Below are positions 10,354 through 64,000 of a stretch of DNA of 64,000 bases, piece after piece. Position 1 is the stretch's first letter, and each line of letters opens with the position of its first letter. Below the pieces are notes generated by a model. It searched no databases and was not told the DNA's origin. It saw nothing but the letters and a program-made list of their open reading frames with translations. Made by a program: the position numbers and the translations under genes. The stretch is from Dehalococcoidia bacterium (GTDB lineage Bacteria > Chloroflexota > Dehalococcoidia > UBA2979), in NCBI GenBank assembly GCA_023228825.1, contig JALOAL010000001.1, forward strand, positions 188,816 through 252,815, written 5' to 3'.

Positions 10354-10614
10354 TTACCCCAGGTTCACCGCCAGGCAGGTCGTGGTGCGCTGCACCCCCG
10401 GCGTGGACGCGATCTCCGAGGTAATCGTCCGCCCCAGTGCGTCCAGGTCCTCCGCCTCGACCTGCACGATGACGTCGAACGGGCCCGTGACCGTGTCCAC
10501 CGCCGTCACGCGCCCCTCGCCCGCGCCGGCCCCGCCGCCGATGCGCCGGATGTGCTCCGACACCGTCAGCGTGCGTCCCACCTCGGTCTCCACCAGGACG
10601 AAGCCTCGGATCAT
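10354..10614 (-). CDS. Stand-alone Lrp/AsnC C-terminal (RAM) ligand-binding domain protein. It has no HTH domain.
   Basis: The N-terminus MIRGFVLVETEVG... and length (86 aa) match an AsnC_trans_reg domain only. The strong Shine-Dalgarno GAGGAGGAG lies 7 nt upstream of the ATG. Confidence 0.65.
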   Translation of the reverse strand: MIRGFVLVETEVGRTLTVSEHIRRIGGGAGAGEGRVTAVDTVTGPFDVIVQVEAEDLDALGRTITSEIASTPGVQRTTTCLAVNLG

Positions 10615-10710
10615 GGTGCGCTCCTCCTCGGACTGCTGCTTTCGCCGGGAGGGGAGCATACTCGACGCCCCGAGGCGCCACGGGGGCGGACAGCCGGGTA
10701 CCAGGAGGTC

Positions 10711-11070
10711 ATGCAGTACGGGATGATCTCGTACGTGGTGCCGCTCTCGCGCTTCCCGGACACCTACAACAAGCAGCCACTGGCCCTCGCGTCCCTCGCC
10801 TCGCAGAAGAACGACAAGGCCCTCTACCTGAACAACGTCTACGGCGACGACTCGCAGGAGGCGTGGTTCAAGGAGGCGTACCGGGCGACGGGGAAGCGCC
10901 TGGACATGGGCAAGTCCTGCGTCCGCTTCCGCCACCTGGAGGACCTCCCGCTGGAGGTGGTGGGGGAAGCCATCGAACGGACGCCCGTGGAGGACTTTGT
11001 GGCGCGCTATGCGGCGGGGAGGGGTAGCGACGCCGCGTCGTTGAGGATCAATTCCGTTCGCGTGCGGTAG
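10711..11070 (+). CDS. DUF1801 (YdhG-like) domain protein, possibly N-terminally truncated
   Basis: The Shine-Dalgarno AGGAGG precedes the ATG at 10711. The 119-aa product matches the central and C-terminal part of DUF1801 proteins. The expected N-terminal region would overlap the opposite-strand RAM gene. Confidence 0.4.
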   Translation: MQYGMISYVVPLSRFPDTYNKQPLALASLASQKNDKALYLNNVYGDDSQEAWFKEAYRATGKRLDMGKSCVRFRHLEDLPLEVVGEAIERTPVEDFVARYAAGRGSDAASLRINSVRVR

Positions 11071-11073
11071 AAT

Positions 11074-12318
11074 GTGCTCGTGAATCAGACGCAAATGACG
11101 TTGGACGAGTACGACCGCAGAAGGCGTCTCTTGGAGGATGCCTTTAGTCCGTTCGCTCCGGTAAGTGAAGCCGAGGTGTTTCACGGTCGTTCTGAGCAAC
11201 GGCGGCTGGTAGTAGAAGCGATCCGGACGGTCGGTCGGCATGTCGTCATCTACGGCGAGCGAGGGGTTGGTAAAACCTCACTGGCCAACGTTCTGCGCCC
11301 GTGGCTGGGCCAAGCGATAGCCGTTGCCCACGTTAGCGCAACAGCTGGCGACACCTTCGAGACCCTGATTCGACGGGCGTTCGCCTCCTACCAGCTGACA
11401 TTGCCGCTGCCCGCTGTGGGCTTCGTGCGTCAGCAGACTGAAGTTCAGTACGCCTTGGCGGCTGCTCTACCGGGCGAGAGCCCGCTGCTCCCCGATCAGG
11501 TCGCTCGGACGCTTGCGAACTTCAACTATGACCTGGTCGTCGTGGTTGACGAGTTCGACCGCCTCCCCACAGAGCAAGTACCGGCCTTCGCAGACTTTAT
11601 TAAGTCTCTTTCTGACGACCGGTCTGGATCGACTGTCGTGATTGTCGGTGTTGCAGAATCGGTCAATCAATTGGTAGGCGAACATGGATCGATTGTCCGC
11701 AACCTCATGCAAATTCATATGCCGCGGATGTCGGAGGACGAACTCACCGAGATCGTCGATACCGGGTTTACAGCAGCTGACTGCACCAGCACAAGTCGAG
11801 TGATGAGCAGAATCGTGCGGTCGTGTCACGGCTTCCCGCATTACGCTCATCTGATCGCACAGTACACGGGCTTAGCGGCGTTAAACGAGGCGAAGCAAAA
11901 GGGACAAGCAATCGACGGGACGCTCGAGATCACCGAGCAGCACGTCGTTGGAGGAATGGATCGGGCCGTCCAGACCGCCGATCAGACGCACCGCGAGGCG
12001 TACCATCGGGCGGTCCAAGGTGGGGATGCTTCTCTGTGGGTACCGGTAGTGGTCGCATGTGCCTTGGCGTCGGCGGATGACCGTGGCTTCTTTAATTCCC
12101 GGGCAGTTCTACAGGCGTTGCAGCAGATACGCGGCCAAGAGGTCGTCCAACAGACTTTTGCCTACCATCTGGGCGAGCTGATCGCGGAAAAGCGGGGGCC
12201 ACTCCTCGAACGCACTGGTCCTGAGAAGCGCTACCTCTACCGCTTTGTTGATCCCTTCATGCGGCCCTATATCATCATGCGGGCACAGGCCGAGCGGGTG
12301 GCTGACGGTCTCGCCTAA
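11074..12318 (+). CDS. AAA+ P-loop NTPase (Arch_ATPase/AAA_16/AAA_22-like, Cdc6/ORC-like N-terminal domain with an uncharacterised C-terminal domain) on a low-GC islet
   Basis: Walker A is GERGVGKTSL and Walker B is VVVDEFDRL. The protein is 414 aa. Local GC is about 48-57% against about 70% in the flanks. Confidence 0.6.
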   Translation: MLVNQTQMTLDEYDRRRRLLEDAFSPFAPVSEAEVFHGRSEQRRLVVEAIRTVGRHVVIYGERGVGKTSLANVLRPWLGQAIAVAHVSATAGDTFETLIRRAFASYQLTLPLPAVGFVRQQTEVQYALAAALPGESPLLPDQVARTLANFNYDLVVVVDEFDRLPTEQVPAFADFIKSLSDDRSGSTVVIVGVAESVNQLVGEHGSIVRNLMQIHMPRMSEDELTEIVDTGFTAADCTSTSRVMSRIVRSCHGFPHYAHLIAQYTGLAALNEAKQKGQAIDGTLEITEQHVVGGMDRAVQTADQTHREAYHRAVQGGDASLWVPVVVACALASADDRGFFNSRAVLQALQQIRGQEVVQQTFAYHLGELIAEKRGPLLERTGPEKRYLYRFVDPFMRPYIIMRAQAERVADGLA

Positions 12319-12344
12319 CTCTCCCTCCCCATACAATCCCCACC

Positions 12345-13394
12345 ATGACCTCCACCACTGACCGCATCGCCGAGATTGAGCGCGACGCCCTGGCGGCGCT
12401 CGCCAGTGCCGAGGATGACGCCAGCATCGAGGCGTGGCGGACGCGGGTGCTGGGGCGGTCGGGGGAGTTGACGGGCGTGCTGCGCGGCATCGGCGGGCTG
12501 GAGGCCGAGGAGCGCAAGGCCGTGGGCGCCGAGGCGAACCGCGCCAAGCAGGTGCTGGAGGCAGCCCTCGAAGCGCGGCGCGAGGCGGTCCGGCGCGCGG
12601 CGCTGGCCTCGGCGGAGGCGGACGCCCTCGACGTGACGCTGCCGGGCCGGCCAGTGGGCATCGGCCGGCTGCACCCGGTCACGCAGGTGCGCCGCAAGAT
12701 CCTGGACGTCTTCGAGCGCCTGGGCTTCCAGGTCATCGAGGGCCCCGAGGTGGAACTGGACGAGTACAACTTCGGCGCGCTGCGCATCCCGGAACACCAC
12801 CCCGCGCGCGACATGTGGGACACGTTCTGGTTCGACGAGGAGGTGGACGGCAAGACGCCGCTCCTCCTGCGTACGCACACCAGCCCCATGCAGATCCGCC
12901 ACATGCAGTCCCACGAGCCGCCCATCCGCGTGGCCGTCCCCGGCAAGTGCTACCGCTACGAGGCCACGGACGCCACGCACGAGTGGATGCTGGAGCAGGT
13001 GGAACTGCTCGCCATTGACGAGGGCATCTCCATGGCGAACCTGAAGGGGACCCTGGAGGAGTGGGCGCGCCAGATGTTCGGCCCCGGCCGCAAGGTGATG
13101 CTACGCAACTCCTACTTCCCGTTCGTGGAGCCGGGCGTGGAGGTGGCGGTCGACTGCTTCGCCTGCCCGGGCGACGACCCGGCGTGCTCGGTATGTCGAG
13201 GCTCAGGCTGGCTGGAGATGATGGGCGCGGGCATGGTGCACCCGGAGATCATCGAGGCTGCGGGCTACGACCCGGAGCGGTACACGGGCTTCGCCGCCGG
13301 CATGGGCGTGGAGCGCGTGGCCATGGTGATGCTGGGCGTCTCCGACATCCGCGACTTCCACGCGAACGACCCTCGCTTCCTCGCCCAGTTCTGA
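12345..13394 (+). CDS. pheS: Phenylalanine--tRNA ligase alpha subunit
   Basis: Class II aaRS motifs are present (...FDEEVDGKTPLLLRTHTSPMQIRHM...). The protein is 349 aa. Confidence 0.9.
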   Translation: MTSTTDRIAEIERDALAALASAEDDASIEAWRTRVLGRSGELTGVLRGIGGLEAEERKAVGAEANRAKQVLEAALEARREAVRRAALASAEADALDVTLPGRPVGIGRLHPVTQVRRKILDVFERLGFQVIEGPEVELDEYNFGALRIPEHHPARDMWDTFWFDEEVDGKTPLLLRTHTSPMQIRHMQSHEPPIRVAVPGKCYRYEATDATHEWMLEQVELLAIDEGISMANLKGTLEEWARQMFGPGRKVMLRNSYFPFVEPGVEVAVDCFACPGDDPACSVCRGSGWLEMMGAGMVHPEIIEAAGYDPERYTGFAAGMGVERVAMVMLGVSDIRDFHANDPRFLAQF

Positions 13395-61203: not shown

Positions 61204-62559
61204 ATGAAGGTCATCGTGATCGGGGGCGGCGTGGCGGGCCTGGGCGCCGCGTACGAACTGGTGAAGCGCGGCCACGAGGTCGCCCTCTACGAGGCGAGCA
61301 CGGAGTTCGGCGGCCAGGTGCGCACGTTCGAGATCGGCGGCGGCCGCATCGAGATCTTCTACCACCACCTCTTCCAGTCAGACGACGAGGCGATTCGCAT
61401 CATCCGCGAACTGGGCCTGGAGGATGACCTCACCTGGATCGACTCCAACGTGGGGCTGCATGGGGGCGGCAAGAACTACCCGTTCGTCGGCGCGCTGGAC
61501 CTGCTGAAGTTCAGCCGCGTCTCCCTCCTCTCGCGCCTGCGCCTGGGCCTCACCGCCCTCTGGCTGCGACGCATCTCCGACTACCAGCGCTACGAGGGCA
61601 CCCGCGCTGCCGAGTGGATCCGCGCCAAGGTGGGCAAGGAGGGCTATGACCGCGTGTGGGGCCCCCTGCTGCGCGCCAAGTTCTCGGAGCACGCGGAAGA
61701 CGTCTCCATGGTCTGGTTCTGGGGCAAGATCTACCTGCGCTTCGCCTCGCGGCCCAAGACCGGCCTCCCGGTCATCGGCGGGCTGCTGGCGAAGGAGCAG
61801 TTGGGCTACCTGGAGGGCTCGTTTGGCCGCCTGATCGACGGCCTGGTGGACGCCTGCCGCGCGAAGGGCGCGCACATGGAGGCCGGCGCCCCCGTGCAGC
61901 GCGTCCTGATCGAGGACGGCCGCGCTGTGGGCGTGTGCCTGCCCGACGGCCGCGAAGACCGCGCGGACGTGGTGCTGGCCACCACCCCCAGCGGCCTCTT
62001 CCAGAAGATCGTCCCGGACCTGCCGGAGATGGGCCCGGAGGGCGCCCAGTACGCCTCGATGCTGGGTGAGGTGCAGTACCAGTGGGCAACGGTGATGGTG
62101 CTCACGCTGGACCGGCCGCTGAGCGACATCTACTGGCTGACGATGACCGACGACGACGCCCCCTTCGTGGTGGCCGTGGAACAGACCAACTTCCTGCCGC
62201 CCTCCACGTACGGGGGCAACCACGTGCTCTACCTCTCGGACTACATGAGCCCCGGCGACCCCATGGTGGACATGAGCGCGGACGAACTGTTCGACCTCTA
62301 CGAGCCGTGGATCAAGAAGATCAACCCCGACTTCGACCGCTCCTGGGTGCGCGACAAGTGGGTCTTCCGCGACCGCGCCGGCCAGCCCGTGGTGCGCATG
62401 GGCTACCACCAGATCATCCCGCCTCACCGGAGCCCCGTCCCCGGCCTCTACCTGGCAAACACGACGCAGATCTACCCGGAAGACCGAGGCCAGAACTACA
62501 GCCTGCGCATGGGCCGCCGCGTCGCCGACCTCGTCGAGAGCGACTTTGCTTTAGGGTAG
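61204..62559 (+). CDS. FAD/NAD(P)-binding oxidoreductase (amine-oxidase/phytoene-desaturase-like fold)
   Basis: The Rossmann dinucleotide-binding motif MKVIVIGGGVAGLGAAYEL is present. The protein is 451 aa. Confidence 0.65.
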   Translation: MKVIVIGGGVAGLGAAYELVKRGHEVALYEASTEFGGQVRTFEIGGGRIEIFYHHLFQSDDEAIRIIRELGLEDDLTWIDSNVGLHGGGKNYPFVGALDLLKFSRVSLLSRLRLGLTALWLRRISDYQRYEGTRAAEWIRAKVGKEGYDRVWGPLLRAKFSEHAEDVSMVWFWGKIYLRFASRPKTGLPVIGGLLAKEQLGYLEGSFGRLIDGLVDACRAKGAHMEAGAPVQRVLIEDGRAVGVCLPDGREDRADVVLATTPSGLFQKIVPDLPEMGPEGAQYASMLGEVQYQWATVMVLTLDRPLSDIYWLTMTDDDAPFVVAVEQTNFLPPSTYGGNHVLYLSDYMSPGDPMVDMSADELFDLYEPWIKKINPDFDRSWVRDKWVFRDRAGQPVVRMGYHQIIPPHRSPVPGLYLANTTQIYPEDRGQNYSLRMGRRVADLVESDFALG

Positions 62560-62641
62560 ATCCCTGCGCGGTGGCCCGATCTACTCAACCTCCTCCTGTT
62601 GCATCCTTGCGGGCCATTAGCGCGTGCTGGGCTCAAAATCA

Positions 62642-62675
62642 TCATCGAAACGATGAGATGACCCATCGTTTCGAT
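62642..62675. promoter_or_regulatory. 14/15-bp inverted repeat TCATCGAAACGATGA…(C)CATCGTTTCGATGA at the entry to a low-GC islet
   Basis: The hairpin-forming repeat is read directly. Its function (operator, terminator or insertion scar) is unknown. Confidence 0.5.
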
Positions 62676-62738
62676 GACGACAAGTCTGGTGGCGGTGACG
62701 AAAATGTCACCGTGCATCGCGACATCGAGGAGGATCGC

Positions 62739-63350
62739 ATGAGACTGAAGGTTGAGCGGCGCTCTGTCGCTGCACTCGTTGGTGCAGCAATGTCCATCGT
62801 GATTGTACAGGGATTGATGTCCTCGTCTGTCTTCGGAAGTGGGCAATCCCCCTTCGCTGCGTACCTCGGAGTCCCCGACCACGAGTCCTACCGGGTGGTG
62901 CAATCCCACTACAAGAATTACGGAGGCGGCCCGACCGAGATACTCAAGGTTATCGATTATTACCGTGTGTCTGACGGTACGCCAGAGCGGACGGAGAGCA
63001 TCTTCTACGAGAACGGAACCGCGATAGTCTCTAGCGCCACCGACTTCGCCTCTGGCTCCCCGGTCGCAACCACACACGACCTCCGTTCGGGGCGAACCCA
63101 CACTACGACCGTGCTGCTACCAGCCGCGGGAATCACCGAGATAACACCGCTCGATGTGCTGGCAGCACGTGGTTTCTCAGAGATCGGCGAGTCCTCGTGG
63201 GCTGGCGAGACCACCCGGATCTTCGCCCTTGAGCAGGAATTGCCCGAGGGAAGCGGGCTCGATGCGGACGCAGAACGCGTCGAGGTGCACGTCCATGCCA
63301 AAAGCGAAGTGTTGTCCTGCCAAACTAGACAGTGCTTTCAATCAAGATAG
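62739..63350 (+). CDS. Secreted protein of unknown function (signal peptide) on a low-GC islet
   Basis: The strong Shine-Dalgarno GAGGAGG lies 5 nt before the ATG. The N-terminus is MRLKVERRSVAALVGAAMSIVIVQG. The tracked ORF 62082..63350 overextends upstream. Confidence 0.5.
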   Translation: MRLKVERRSVAALVGAAMSIVIVQGLMSSSVFGSGQSPFAAYLGVPDHESYRVVQSHYKNYGGGPTEILKVIDYYRVSDGTPERTESIFYENGTAIVSSATDFASGSPVATTHDLRSGRTHTTTVLLPAAGITEITPLDVLAARGFSEIGESSWAGETTRIFALEQELPEGSGLDADAERVEVHVHAKSEVLSCQTRQCFQSR

Positions 63351-63898
63351 ACTATCTTACAGTATTTACTTTTGCATTGGCGATATTGCTGGTGTCTGTA
63401 AGCATCTCATGCGCAAGCGACCATGGGGCTCTCGTGGAGCGACGCGAAGGGGAGTGGGAGATCCACCTGGATTCCGATTGGGAGGAAATAAGACTCGATG
63501 ATCCTCCTCCCGACGGGTTCACCGGACGATACAGGAGCGCATTTCAAGCGGCCTCAAGTGCTGACCGGGCGTCGGTCTCAGTCTTGGAGATCGGCGGTGC
63601 GCGAAGTCCCGCCGAGGAAGCGGAGGAGTACGCGAGGGCCATCGAGGGGTATGCGGGTTTTGAGCGGTACCGAGTGGTTGCTCGCACCGGGCCGTTCGTG
63701 GACCGTCGCAGCGTCCGGGTGGAGGTACATGCCGAGCGGGGCGACGACGAGACATTGCTCGCGGCCTTCATCCGAGCGGAAGCGGAGGCGTCCCCGATGT
63801 GGCTAGTCTTGTGCCGCGCTACCGAGGTTGAATCGTCGCTTTCGCCCTGCCCTGCCGTTGTCTCTGCGTTCCAGGTCGAATCTGGGGACCAACAGTAG
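63332..63898 (+). CDS. Secreted/lipoprotein-like protein of unknown function
   Basis: It has a GTG start and a hydrophobic signal peptide LTVFTFALAILLVSVSISCAS. It overlaps the upstream gene end. The 5' region is AT-rich. Confidence 0.4.
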   Translation: MLSIKIDYLTVFTFALAILLVSVSISCASDHGALVERREGEWEIHLDSDWEEIRLDDPPPDGFTGRYRSAFQAASSADRASVSVLEIGGARSPAEEAEEYARAIEGYAGFERYRVVARTGPFVDRRSVRVEVHAERGDDETLLAAFIRAEAEASPMWLVLCRATEVESSLSPCPAVVSAFQVESGDQQ

Positions 63899-64000
63899 TC
63901 GTGCCGGGAGGGATGTCCGTCCTCACCTTTCCCCGAGCCGCCGCCGCTGGTAGATTGCAGGGGCGCGTGAAATCGTGCACGAGCAGCGCCACCGGGTATG

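What the first reader, a model, noticed from the sequence alone, without database searches (positions are those of the whole stretch)
11040..12340. Single-gene low-GC islet encoding an uncharacterised AAA+ (Cdc6/Arch_ATPase-like) NTPase inserted immediately upstream of pheS
The 414-aa ORF has clear Walker A (GERGVGKTSL) and Walker B (VVVDEFDRL) motifs. Its C-terminal domain of about 200 aa is one I cannot assign. Its GC (about 48-57%) is far below the roughly 70% of the flanks, which points to horizontal acquisition. It sits next to a truncated DUF1801 gene and a RAM-only Lrp fragment, so the neighbourhood looks degraded. Stand-alone AAA+ NTPases of this size on islets are candidates for defence or conflict-related functions, but the sequence alone does not show that.
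Basis: partly seen in the sequence, partly recalled or inferred. Interest (0 to 1): 0.6.

Follow-up and report, generated by a model that had tools for sequence, protein, structure and literature searches.

The report
Orphan DNA-binding ATPase in defence hotspot
A horizontally acquired gene for an Orc1/Cdc6-like, DNA-binding ATPase sits in a slot just upstream of pheS that related bacteria fill with different candidate anti-phage genes, which makes it a plausible but untested single-gene immunity candidate.

Summary

Context is decisive. In 13 related Dehalococcoidia genomes (pheS 75-100% identical) a conserved ~31-nt block precedes pheS. Immediately upstream lie about 10 unrelated low-GC3 cargos, including PADLOC candidates PDC-S21, HEC-01 and PDC-M34. 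The variable segment in the window is 11011-12313.

The family (about 1,700 clusters at 50% identity) is AT-shifted relative to its hosts. It also occurs on plasmids, on an IS1-like transposon, and in prophage variable regions (Mycobacterium phage Kevin1 gp30).

Best reading: mobile accessory cargo in a defence-type hotspot, probably an ATP-gated DNA-binding conflict protein. Function is untested. Nearest neighbours in other phyla are mostly housekeeping genes.

The parts
11095..12318 (+). CDS of the AAA+/wHTH NTPase: 407 aa from ATG 11095, with an alternative GTG start at 11074 giving 414 aa. The TAA stop is at 12316-12318.
   Evidence: ORF list. Identical 407-aa protein called on 4 public contigs. 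Pfam nSTAND1 55.6 bits, AAA_16 and AAA_22. AF2 model pLDDT 94.4, pTM 0.89.
11254..11283 (+). Walker A / P-loop, GERGVGKTSL (residues 54-63 of the 407-aa protein). G54, R56, G57, G59, K60, S62 and L63 are invariant in 117 homologs; E55, V58 and T61 are at least 90% conserved.
11392..11454 (+). Beta-hairpin insertion between beta2 and the Walker B strand (residues about 100-120), with a nearly invariant Gly-Phe (G109, F110) between its two strands. Inferred to be a nucleic-acid or partner contact loop.
   Evidence: DSSP of the model, strands E100-106 and E114-120. Conservation. The role is inference.
11539..11565 (+). Walker B, VVVDEFDRL (residues 149-157). D152 and D155 are invariant; E153 is nearly invariant.
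11647..11733 (+). Strand beta4 plus the following helices, with invariant H197, S199, R202, Q206 and R211. By position this is the sensor-1 / box VII region, and R202 or R211 is the candidate arginine finger.
   Evidence: Invariant columns. Secondary structure. The assignment of roles is inference from the general AAA+ layout.
11716..11976 (+). Alpha-helical AAA+ lid (residues about 208-294). It contains the invariant G-[FL]-P-H motif (HGFPHYAHL, 11827-11853), which aligns with the sensor-2 segment of the RuvB lid.
   Evidence: Profile alignment to RuvB 1in7/1in4, lid residues 181-248. Model.
11977..12315 (+). C-terminal winged helix-turn-helix domain (residues 295-407) with an Arg-rich wing (RGPLLERTG...KRYLYRF, 12193-12246).
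   Evidence: Stand-alone model pLDDT 91.4. All Foldseek hits are wHTH proteins: MarR, ArsR/SmtB, PadR, Sso10a, TubR, and the WH domains of Cdc6/ORC and Sso1545.
11011..12313 (.). Lineage-variable cargo segment (the islet): everything between the last base homologous to sister genome L089 and the conserved pheS-proximal block.
   Evidence: blastn against L089, L087 and L088: left break at 11010, right break at 12314 in three comparisons. Different genes occupy this position in relatives.
12314..12344 (+). Conserved 31-nt pheS-proximal block, CCTAAC-TCTCCCTCCCCA-TACAAT-CCCCACC, ending at the pheS ATG. Its TAA is the stop codon of the NTPase. It is probably the pheS core promoter or short leader (inferred).
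   Evidence: Present in the 10 relatives compared and in recognisable form in the 3. Similarity is lost immediately upstream of it.
12345..13394 (+). pheS (phenylalanine-tRNA ligase alpha subunit), the conserved right anchor of the hotspot.
   Evidence: Pfam tRNA-synt_2d 309.6 bits and Phe_tRNA-synt_N 68 bits.
10696..11070 (+). N-terminally truncated DUF1801 gene (called as 119 aa from 10711). Homology to the 152-aa ortholog covers only residues 37-141, and the 3' tail after 11010 belongs to the variable segment.
   Evidence: tblastn and blastn against L089. Pfam DUF1801 32.7 bits.
10354..10614 (-). Stand-alone AsnC/Lrp RAM-domain gene (86 aa), an intact conserved gene and the usual left anchor of the variable region.
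   Evidence: Pfam AsnC_trans_reg 45.8 bits. Conserved as an 82-86-aa gene in L087, L089, L095, L099 and L164.

Best explanation
The gene is horizontally acquired accessory cargo. It occupies a hypervariable slot directly upstream of pheS in a Dehalococcoidia lineage. Sister genomes fill the same slot with other low-GC, conflict-type genes.

The protein is a compact three-domain ATPase: an AAA+ base with an inserted beta-hairpin, a helical lid, and a C-terminal winged helix. It resembles Orc1/Cdc6 and the archaeal Arch_ATPase proteins. It has no effector domain and no sensor domain.

The most likely mode of action is inferred, not shown. ATP binding would drive self-assembly into an oligomer or filament on nucleic acid, as in Orc1/Cdc6, TnsC and MuB. 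An invariant arginine after beta4 would complete a neighbouring subunit's active site. The Arg-rich wing of the wHTH and the Gly-Phe hairpin would contact DNA. By occupying or remodelling DNA of an invading phage or plasmid, or by marking it for host factors, the protein would act in defence or in competition between mobile elements.

Shown here: the islet, the hotspot, the fold, conservation of the catalytic residues, and the mobility of the family. Inferred: DNA binding, oligomerisation, and an anti-invader role.
For: Islet and hotspot:
- GC3 is 0.66 against 0.92-0.94 in the neighbours.
- The breakpoints against sister genomes are sharp: 11010 and 12314.
- 13 related genomes (pheS 75-100% identical) carry about 10 unrelated cargos at the same junction, all with GC3 0.60-0.76 against 0.89-0.98 for pheS.
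- Those cargos include PDC-S21 / SIR2-like DUF4917 (2e-82), a complete HEC-01 pair (A 5e-125, B 5e-56), a complete PDC-M34 pair (A 4e-47, B 2e-34), PIN toxin-antitoxin pairs, and a NucS_C-like PD-(D/E)xK protein with wHTH genes.

Fold:
- The full model has pLDDT 94.4.
- The C-terminal domain is a wHTH.

Active enzyme under selection:
- Walker A, Walker B and several arginines are invariant in 117 homologs.
- Between the window gene and its 70% homolog, pN is 0.21 and pS 0.755.

Mobility of the family:
- The gene is AT-shifted relative to its flanks in 55 of 77 genomes and GC-shifted in none; the mean shift is -7 points.
- It occurs on plasmids next to an R-M pair, among Fic/GNAT genes, or between a transposase and a recombinase.
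- It lies inside an IS1-like element with 22-nt terminal repeats.
- It matches phrog_6841, and 58 viral contigs carry a relative.
- Kevin1 gp30 and Cashline gp34 lie between the structural/lysis genes and the integrase/immunity genes of temperate phages. PMC6544188 places Kevin1 gp30 in the cluster N central variable region and flags it as a possible prophage-mediated defence gene.

Literature: ORC/Cdc6-like AAA+ ATPases with fast-evolving wHTH domains recur in predicted anti-invader systems (PMC12839542).
Against: - There is no experimental evidence for any member of the family.
- The family matches no PADLOC model beyond weak superfamily-level hits: mad8 best 4e-8, PDC-S59 best 2e-10.
- Across 75 reference-genome loci from other phyla, the nearest gene on each side is mostly housekeeping, with only scattered defence hits. 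No conserved partner gene exists. The classical defence-island enrichment test is therefore not clearly passed.
- The other occupants of the slot are candidates, not validated systems. HEC-01 gave no protection in the one published test.
- The protein has no recognisable effector, so how binding would harm an invader is unexplained.
- DNA binding and oligomerisation are inferred from fold and conservation only.
Confidence: 0.5

Rival explanations
1. The protein is a mobility factor rather than an immunity gene. It would be an ATP-dependent target-DNA or regulatory ATPase of a transposon or integrative element, working like TnsC, MuB, TniB or IstB. The copy in the window would be a stranded remnant of such an element.
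Against: The window has no transposase, integrase or IS1-like end: there is no match to the inverted repeat even with 6 mismatches, and no flanking repeats. About 90% of sampled loci lack an adjacent transposase. To my knowledge IS1-type transposases need no ATPase, so the gene is more likely a passenger. TniB and TnsC scores are below the family cut-offs. The catalytic residues are conserved and the gene is under purifying selection even as a solitary gene.
Confidence: 0.15
2. The protein is an ATP-dependent transcription factor that serves its host or its element: a minimal MalT- or AAA_16-type NTPase with a wHTH that switches DNA binding with nucleotide state. It would have no direct anti-invader activity.
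Against: The slot holds unrelated genes in sister genomes, so pheS does not depend on it. No conserved target gene or neighbour is seen across 80 loci. Foreign composition and presence on phages and plasmids fit cargo better than host regulation.
Confidence: 0.12
3. The protein is an Orc1/Cdc6-type replication initiator or maintenance protein of a plasmid or integrated element that was captured in the chromosome.
Against: NCBIfam orc1/cdc6 scores 16 bits against a cut-off of 181. The Acinetobacter plasmid that carries a homolog has a separate annotated replication protein, and there the homolog follows an R-M pair. No iteron- or ORB-like repeats lie near the window gene. The islet holds one gene only.
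Confidence: 0.06
4. The gene is a toxin- or addiction-type selfish gene, or an inert hitch-hiker kept only by the turnover of the hotspot, with no benefit to the cell.
For: Kevin1 gp30 lies next to a HicB-like antitoxin gene. Toxin-antitoxin pairs occur in the same slot in L099. The DUF1801 flank is damaged.
Against: The window has no partner gene, and no partner is conserved in the family. The protein has no toxin-like domain. The whole length is strongly conserved across roughly 1,700 clusters, which argues for a selected activity.
Confidence: 0.07

Closest known systems
Archaeal Orc1/Cdc6 replication initiators (PDB 2qby, 1fnn, 1w5s, 2v1u)
   Different: Sequence identity is only 14-16%. The NCBIfam orc1/cdc6 model is far below its cut-off. 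The protein has a beta-hairpin insert with a conserved Gly-Phe and a G-[FL]-P-H motif in the lid segment that aligns with RuvB's sensor-2 region. It is bacterial, accessory, foreign in composition and variable between sister genomes, and is not a core gene beside an origin.
Archaeal 'Arch_ATPase' proteins with a wHTH: Pyrococcus abyssi PAB2304 (2qen) and Sulfolobus Sso1545 (2fna)
   Different: Pfam ATPase_2 (PF01637) scores 17.1 bits against a cut-off of 33.2, so the protein is not a sequence member. Identity is 12-16%.
STAND NTPases, in particular the nSTAND1 clade (Kaur et al. 2021, PMC8195603) and Avs/NLR-type immune sensors
   Same: Pfam nSTAND1 is the best-scoring family (55.6 bits against 27.1). 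The layout is NBD, helical domain, winged helix. A GxP-like motif (G-F/L-P-H) and a nearly invariant His in the WH domain recall the STAND 'GLPL' and 'MHD' motifs; this is from memory and is a lead only. Resistosome, Apaf-1, MalT and Avs5 are among the structural hits.
BrxC/PglY of BREX and the ORC/Cdc6-like ATPases of predicted anti-invader 'capture' systems (PMC12839542)
   Different: Those ATPases work within multi-gene systems (methyltransferase, PglZ, HerA/FtsK, nucleases). This gene is solitary, with no conserved partner.
Transposition target-DNA ATPases TnsC (Tn7/CAST) and MuB
   Different: No transposase accompanies the window gene or most homologs. TnsC and MuB lack a comparable C-terminal MarR-like wHTH. 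Sequence scores are below threshold.
Mycobacterium phage Kevin1 gp30 'AAA-ATPase' (phrog_6841)
   Same: A true full-length homolog: 37% identity over 96% of the length, in the same PHROG. It also sits in a hypervariable accessory region, the central region of a cluster N prophage.
   Different: It is phage-borne and adjacent to a HicB-like gene. It is equally uncharacterised.

Membership tests
Pfam nSTAND1 (PF20703) / STAND NTPases | Sequence match to the family model above its gathering score | tested here: met
   55.6 bits against a cut-off of 27.1, E 9.4e-15, residues 31-308, profile positions 11-270 of 379. The same hit is precomputed for nearly all homologs.
Pfam nSTAND1 (PF20703) / STAND NTPases | Multidomain architecture: the central NTPase flanked by an N-terminal effector or adaptor domain and C-terminal sensor repeats or lectin-type domains (definition in PMC8195603) | tested here: not met
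   All 407 residues are accounted for by the AAA+ base, lid and wHTH. The family is uniformly about 395-435 aa. A single fused exception exists, P0368.
Pfam nSTAND1 (PF20703) / STAND NTPases | STAND-specific motifs: GxP in the helical domain in place of the sensor-2 Arg, and a conserved His in the winged helix that contacts ADP (recalled from Leipe et al. 2004 and the NLR literature) | tested here: inconclusive
   An invariant G246 with P248, H249 and H252 (HGFPHY) aligns with the RuvB sensor-2 segment. A nearly invariant H358 lies in a WH helix. Model coordinates could not be inspected, so contact with the nucleotide site is untested.
Pfam nSTAND1 (PF20703) / STAND NTPases | Closest structural neighbours are STAND proteins | tested here: not met
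Orc1/Cdc6 replication initiators | AAA+ base, lid and C-terminal winged helix in about 400 aa | tested here: met
Orc1/Cdc6 replication initiators | Sequence membership (NCBIfam TIGR02928) | tested here: not met
   16 bits against a cut-off of 181.3, and only the P-loop matches.
Orc1/Cdc6 replication initiators | A conserved core gene next to an origin with repeated binding boxes | tested here: not met
   The gene is absent from closest relatives at this locus. There are no significant repeats around it. Its composition is foreign.
Arch_ATPase (Pfam ATPase_2, PF01637) | Sequence match above the gathering score | tested here: not met
Known or candidate defence families in PADLOC v2 (PDC-S59, mad8, IetA, PifA, Avs) | Full-length match to a system HMM | tested here: not met
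   The window protein's best hit is PDC-S59, 21.5 bits, E 2.6e-5, over 100 residues. Across 117 homologs the best hits are mad8 at 3.6e-8 and PDC-S59 at 2.4e-10.
Defence-hotspot cargo (operational class) | Variable gene content between conserved flanking genes in closely related genomes | tested here: met
   About 10 cargo types in 13 genomes, bounded on the right by a conserved 31-nt block and pheS.
Defence-hotspot cargo (operational class) | Other occupants of the same slot are recognised defence systems | tested here: met
   PDC-S21 at 2e-82, HEC-01A/B at 5e-125 and 5e-56, PDC-M34A/B at 4e-47 and 2e-34. Caveat: these are candidate systems, and HEC-01 was negative in the one published assay.
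Defence-hotspot cargo (operational class) | Family-wide enrichment next to defence genes | tested here: inconclusive
   Among 149 nearest neighbours in 75 loci, only scattered defence hits appeared and most were housekeeping. Only one gene on each side was sampled, and no background rate was computed.
Defence-hotspot cargo (operational class) | Demonstrated protection against phage or plasmid | not testable with these tools
   This needs an experiment.
Transposition AAA+ regulators (TnsC/MuB/TniB/IstB) | Encoded with a cognate transposase inside the element's ends | tested here: not met
   The window has no transposase and no IS1-like inverted repeat. The feature is met only for a sub-clade: L054, L061 and L072. 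Pfam TniB scores 17.9 against 22.4.

The most novel reading that the evidence does not exclude
A protein with no effector and no sensor domain, consisting only of an Orc1/Cdc6-like AAA+ module and a winged helix, is by itself an immunity gene. It would recognise invading DNA and block it through ATP-driven assembly on that DNA, for example by occluding or hijacking a replication, packaging or transcription site. That would be a defence mode resembling a decoy replication initiator. In addition, the pheS-upstream slot would be a cassette-exchange site with a fixed junction: three unrelated cargo ORFs end on the same TAA of the conserved block.
Probability: 0.2. Interest if true: 0.75.

Novelty: new variant of a known kind. 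Interest (0 to 1): 0.52.

Why it matters
If the family protects against phages or plasmids, it would add a widespread single-gene system (about 1,700 clusters at 50% identity, in many phyla, on prophages, plasmids and an IS element). Its only parts would be an ORC-like ATPase and a winged helix. That would force a mechanism other than the usual sensor-plus-toxic-effector logic.

The finding also identifies a compact, sharply bounded hotspot upstream of pheS in an uncultured Dehalococcoidia lineage. The hotspot could be mined for further candidates: several occupants (255-aa, 230-aa, 173-aa and 192-aa proteins, and the DUF8371 module) have no annotation.

Mycobacterium phage Kevin1 gp30 offers an immediately tractable experimental handle in M. 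smegmatis.

Tried and rejected
- **Conserved partner gene.** All-against-all clustering of ORFs within 6 kb in 80 loci found no universal neighbour.
- **Defence-island enrichment from nearest neighbours.** The signal was weak and most neighbours were housekeeping. I do not use it as support.
- **Integron-like cassette site.** GCCTAAC at the junction fits the inverse core site RYYYAAC in the window and L005. The corresponding 7-mers in L089, L087 and L090 do not fit, and no integrase was seen, so I dropped the idea.
- **Transposon ends or target duplications around the islet.** None were found.
- **tRNA-linked integration.** The nearest tRNAs are at 31.7-32.2 kb.
- **Plasmid Rep function.** Rejected from the plasmid contexts.
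- **Rosetta-stone fusions.** N-terminal extensions in 7 longer homologs carry no Pfam domain and may be mis-called starts. Only P0368 is informative.
- **dN/dS between the window gene and its 70% homolog.** Synonymous sites are saturated (pS 0.755), so no ratio could be computed. The comparison with pheS (pS 0.36) is confounded by the extreme GC3 of pheS.
- **Promoter and terminator scan.** One sigma-70-like site lies inside the 3' end of the gene (12248-12275) and there is no terminator. This is uninformative for a Chloroflexota genome.
- **Sequence search of solved structures.** Only generic AAA+ matches (RuvB, Clp, clamp loader) were returned.
Full report
**1. The observation**

The window contains an ORF at 11074..12318 on the + strand, 414 aa from a GTG start. 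Public gene calls for the identical protein, and the alignment with homologs, favour the ATG at 11095, which gives 407 aa. I number residues from that start.

pheS (Pfam tRNA-synt_2d, 309.6 bits) starts at 12345, 26 nt after the TAA stop.

The compositional dip is real but was overstated:
- The gene is 59.1% GC, against 70.4% for the window.
- 300-nt windows range from 53.7% to 64.3%, not 48-57%.
- It is the lowest 1,245-nt stretch of the 64 kb, about 3.7 sd below the mean.
- The third codon position shows it best: GC3 is 0.66, against 0.92-0.94 in pheS, moeA, the thiolase gene, DUF1801 and the AsnC-type gene.

**2. What the protein is**

*Sequence families.* Pfam's best match is nSTAND1 (PF20703, 55.6 bits against a cut-off of 27.1, residues 31-308), followed by AAA_16 and AAA_22. 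ATPase_2, NACHT, TniB and KAP are all below threshold or marginal. NCBIfam has nothing above cut-off; orc1/cdc6 scores 16 bits against 181. PADLOC gives only a weak partial hit to PDC-S59 (21.5 bits).

*Family size and conservation.* Homology searches return a large and very uniform family:
- about 2,500 hits in the indexed search;
- 1,728 clusters at 50% identity with E ≤ 1e-30 in the exhaustive search;
- nearly all members 395-435 aa and matching end to end.

Conservation extends through the C-terminal part. In 117 sequences the invariant residues include the P-loop (G54, R56, G57, G59, K60, S62), D152 and D155, H197, S199, R202, Q206, R211, G246, H252, F333, G368, G375 and F384.

*Structure.* An AlphaFold model built on that alignment is very confident (pLDDT 94.4, pTM 0.89).
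- Foldseek against the PDB ranks archaeal Cdc6/Orc1 and eukaryotic ORC/Cdc6 first (E about 1e-11 to 1e-9, alignments spanning the full length), then a wheat resistosome, Apaf-1, RuvB and RFC.
- STAND and BREX proteins score lower: MalT 13.9, BrxC 13.6, plant NLRs about 13.5, Avs5 12.4.

A sequence profile aligns the lid with the RuvB lid and sensor-2 segment. Modelled alone, the last 113 residues give pLDDT 91.4. They hit only winged-helix proteins: MarR, ArsR/SmtB, PadR, Sso10a, TubR, and the WH domains of Cdc6/ORC and Sso1545. Foldseek probability is about 1, although the E-values are modest (5e-3 to 0.1).

*Particular features.* A beta-hairpin is inserted between beta2 and the Walker B strand, with a nearly invariant Gly-Phe between its strands. 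A G-[FL]-P-H motif sits in the lid segment that aligns with RuvB's sensor-2 region. The wing is Arg-rich.

The Pfam nSTAND1 hit applies only to the NTPase module. nSTAND1 was defined as the core of large proteins with effector and sensor domains (PMC8195603), and this protein has neither.

**3. The genomic setting: a hypervariable slot**

This is the most informative result.

*Own genome and nearest homolog.* The identical protein occurs on four public contigs with the same neighbours. Its nearest homolog (P0002, 70% identity) also lies 27 nt upstream of pheS, in a genome whose pheS is 86% identical but whose upstream genes differ (PurS and a small ORF). That copy is also low in GC3: 0.71 against 0.94-0.99.

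*Closer relatives carry something else at the same place.*

| Locus | pheS identity | Occupant upstream of pheS |
|---|---|---|
| L087/L088 | 97% | small wHTH genes, a MarR-like gene and a DUF8371 protein |
| L089 | 94% | a DUF4917 protein; flanks otherwise the same (MoeA, AsnC-RAM, DUF1801 ... pheS, thiolase, AzlCD, XDH, ThiS) |
| L090 | 88% | a homologous wHTH/nuclease-like module, placed after infC-rpmI-rplT |
| L093/L094 | 88% | a ParA-like ATPase plus two unknown proteins |
| L095/L096 | 85% | an ABC-type ATPase plus DUF4276 |
| L098 | 84% | an unknown protein of at least 230 aa |
| L161 | 82% | a 350-aa protein |
| L099 | 77% | HEPN_Swt1 plus DUF5343, with two PIN toxin-antitoxin pairs nearby |
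| L162/L163 | 76% | a 173-aa protein |
| L164 | 75% | a 192-aa protein plus a Hypoth_Ymh protein |

*Composition.* Every occupant has GC3 of 0.60-0.76, against 0.89-0.98 for its pheS.

*Defence-library matches.* Against PADLOC, the DUF4917 protein is PDC-S21 (2e-82). The ATPase/DUF4276 pair is a complete HEC-01 (5e-125 and 5e-56). The DUF5343/HEPN pair is a complete PDC-M34 (4e-47 and 2e-34). The 248-aa homolog of the DUF8371 protein has a NucS_C-like PD-(D/E)xK signature, just below the Pfam cut-off.

*Boundaries.* blastn places the breakpoints precisely. Against L089, homology ends at window 11010, inside the 3' tail of DUF1801. In three comparisons it resumes at 12314. All relatives share a block of about 31 nt (CC[CT]TAAC, a C-rich stretch, TACA[AC]T, 8-9 nt, then ATG), and similarity disappears immediately upstream of it. 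The TAA inside that block serves as the stop codon of the NTPase (window and L005), of PDC-S21 (L089) and of the L098 protein.

*No mobility signatures.* I found no flanking repeats, no IS ends and no nearby tRNA or integrase. How the cargo is exchanged therefore remains open. Homologous recombination through the conserved flanks is the simplest idea, and it is an inference.

*State of the neighbours.* The DUF1801 gene in the window has lost its first 36 codons. The 86-aa AsnC-RAM gene is intact and conserved.

**4. The family elsewhere**

- *Composition.* In 77 reference-genome loci from many phyla, the gene averages 7 GC points below its flanks. It is lower by more than 3 points in 55 loci and higher by more than 3 points in none.
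- *No conserved partner.* No neighbouring gene is conserved across the family.
- *Transposon-borne sub-clade.* About eight loci from unrelated phyla have the gene between a divergent IS1-family-like transposase and a small basic ORF. In L054, L061 and L072 the set is bracketed by 22-nt inverted repeats with GGTA(A/G)TG ends, and L024 retains one end. That sub-clade therefore rides a 2.5-3.4-kb transposon.
- *Plasmids.* Homologs are accessory genes, not the replicon's Rep. One follows a type II R-M pair in Acinetobacter. One lies among Fic, GNAT and DUF4238 genes in Clavibacter. One lies between a transposase and a tyrosine recombinase in Salinibacter.
- *Phages.* The protein belongs to phrog_6841, of unknown function (E 1e-42), and 58 IMG/VR contigs carry a relative. 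Full-length homologs at 36-37% identity are gp30 of Mycobacterium phage Kevin1 and gp34 of Gordonia phage Cashline. Both lie between the structural/lysis genes and the integrase/immunity cassette. The Kevin1 genome announcement calls gene 30 an orpham AAA-ATPase in the phage's unique central variable region and suggests a link to cluster N immunity mechanisms (PMC6544188).
- *One fusion.* A single 1,493-aa protein joins the module to a NACHT-like NTPase and an FGE-sulfatase domain.

*Evidence that weighs against a defence role.*
- The nearest gene on each side in 75 loci is usually a housekeeping gene, with only scattered defence hits.
- The 117 homologs match PADLOC models only weakly.
- HEC-01 gave no protection in the published assay, and the same preprint calls its remaining candidates untested.

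**5. How it most likely works**

*Shown:* an intact and strongly conserved ATPase site, a lid, a winged helix, an inserted hairpin, and structural kinship with proteins that assemble on DNA in an ATP-dependent way (Orc1/Cdc6, TnsC, MuB, BrxC).

*Inferred:* ATP-bound subunits oligomerise on nucleic acid. An invariant arginine (R202 or R211) acts across the subunit interface. The wing and the Gly-Phe hairpin contact DNA.

The position in a slot otherwise filled by conflict-type genes, the prophage variable-region homologs, and the mobile, AT-shifted nature of the family together make a role in defence or in competition between mobile elements the best single reading. I put that at about 0.5. With no effector domain, the likely action is direct occlusion or remodelling of invader DNA, or recruitment of host factors. 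This step is speculative.

*Rivals.*
- A transposition or mobility helper. It is supported by the IS1-like sub-clade and the similarity to TnsC and MuB. It fails for the window and for about 90% of loci.
- An ATP-switched transcription factor.
- A captured Orc-type replication protein. The plasmid contexts and the lack of origin-like repeats speak against it.
- A selfish or inert passenger.

**6. Comparison with known systems, and novelty**

The protein works like an Orc1/Cdc6 or Arch_ATPase-type DNA-binding switch. It fails the sequence-membership tests for both families. It passes the Pfam nSTAND1 threshold but lacks the architecture that defines that clade. It belongs to no PADLOC family.

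I file it as a new variant of a known kind: a minimal AAA+/wHTH candidate conflict gene that sits as cargo in a defence-type hotspot. Neither the hotspot upstream of pheS nor this family appears in the papers I could search, but that library is incomplete.

**7. Verdict**

The finding is real and its interpretation is largely right. The evidence for a defence role is circumstantial, and I make no functional claim beyond 'candidate'. Interest is moderate: a specialist would not be surprised by a hotspot or by an orphan ATPase. A widespread immunity gene made only of an ORC-like module, with no effector, would be noteworthy if confirmed. Kevin1 gp30 makes that testable.

Noticed in passing
window 62450-63900: A second low-GC patch: 1,245-nt GC about 0.59, as low as the NTPase islet. 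It holds ORFs 62082..63350 (+), whose C-terminal half starts with a signal/TM-like 'MRLKVERRSVAALVGAAMSIVIVQGL', and 63332..63898 (+), which is lipoprotein-like ('...LLVSVSISCASD'). It may be another acquired islet.
   Followed up: no
window 12345-13394 and about 20350 onward (L001 19256+): pheS and pheT are about 7 kb apart in this genome, separated by thiolase, AzlC/AzlD, xanthine-dehydrogenase-type and ThiS genes. L093 shows a similar split, and L087-L089 have the same intervening genes downstream of pheS. The two genes are adjacent in more distant relatives (L099, L162).
   Followed up: partly
L054:8933-11458; L061:8387-11754; L072:8644-11712; L024 (right end only, 11436): An IS1-family-like element of 2.5-3.4 kb has 22-nt terminal inverted repeats (GGTAGTGGGTCAGTTTGAAATT / AATTTCAAACTGAGGCATTACC). 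It carries a transposase, an NTPase homolog and a small basic ORF (KNPAAVALGRLGGLKGGKARA...RW). It is shared by Acidobacteriaceae, Alphaproteobacteria and Mesorhizobium.
   Followed up: partly
window 12314-12344 and the equivalent junctions in L005, L089, L098: ORFs of three unrelated cargo families (the NTPase, PDC-S21 and a protein of at least 230 aa) all terminate on the TAA of the conserved CCTAAC block, 27-28 nt before the pheS ATG. The cause of this fixed junction is unexplained.
   Followed up: partly
L008:125-5057: In a more distant Dehalococcoidia MAG, the 48%-identical NTPase lies about 400 nt downstream of pheS-pheT. The association with the pheST neighbourhood may therefore extend beyond the upstream slot.
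   Followed up: no
L087:1745-3163; L090:4133-5955: A recurrent multi-gene cargo consists of two to four small wHTH proteins, a MarR-like protein and a DUF8371 / NucS_C-like PD-(D/E)xK protein. The two nuclease-like proteins are 41% identical. No PADLOC system matches it, so it may be another uncharacterised conflict module.
   Followed up: partly
P0368 (1,493 aa, metagenomic representative): The NTPase-wHTH module (residues 5-420) is fused to a second NACHT/nSTAND3-like NTPase and a C-terminal FGE-sulfatase (C-lectin-type) domain. This architecture is typical of predicted conflict systems. It is a single case and could be a gene-call fusion.
   Followed up: no
L161:1016-2068: The 350-aa cargo upstream of pheS in this relative shows SIR2-like motifs by eye (NYDALLD ... 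HLHGA). It has no precomputed Pfam hit and GC3 0.60.
   Followed up: no
L103-L132 (IMG/VR contigs): By a hand count from the table, about half of the 20 best viral-contig hits lie within roughly 10% of a contig end. That fits prophage-end accessory genes, but mis-trimmed host flanks are not excluded.
   Followed up: no
window 11060-11095: A TAGAAT hexamer lies about 20 nt upstream of the ATG at 11095, and no Shine-Dalgarno-like sequence lies between them. The conserved TACAAT lies 9 nt upstream of the pheS ATG. Both suggest short-leader or leaderless transcripts, which is untested.
   Followed up: no
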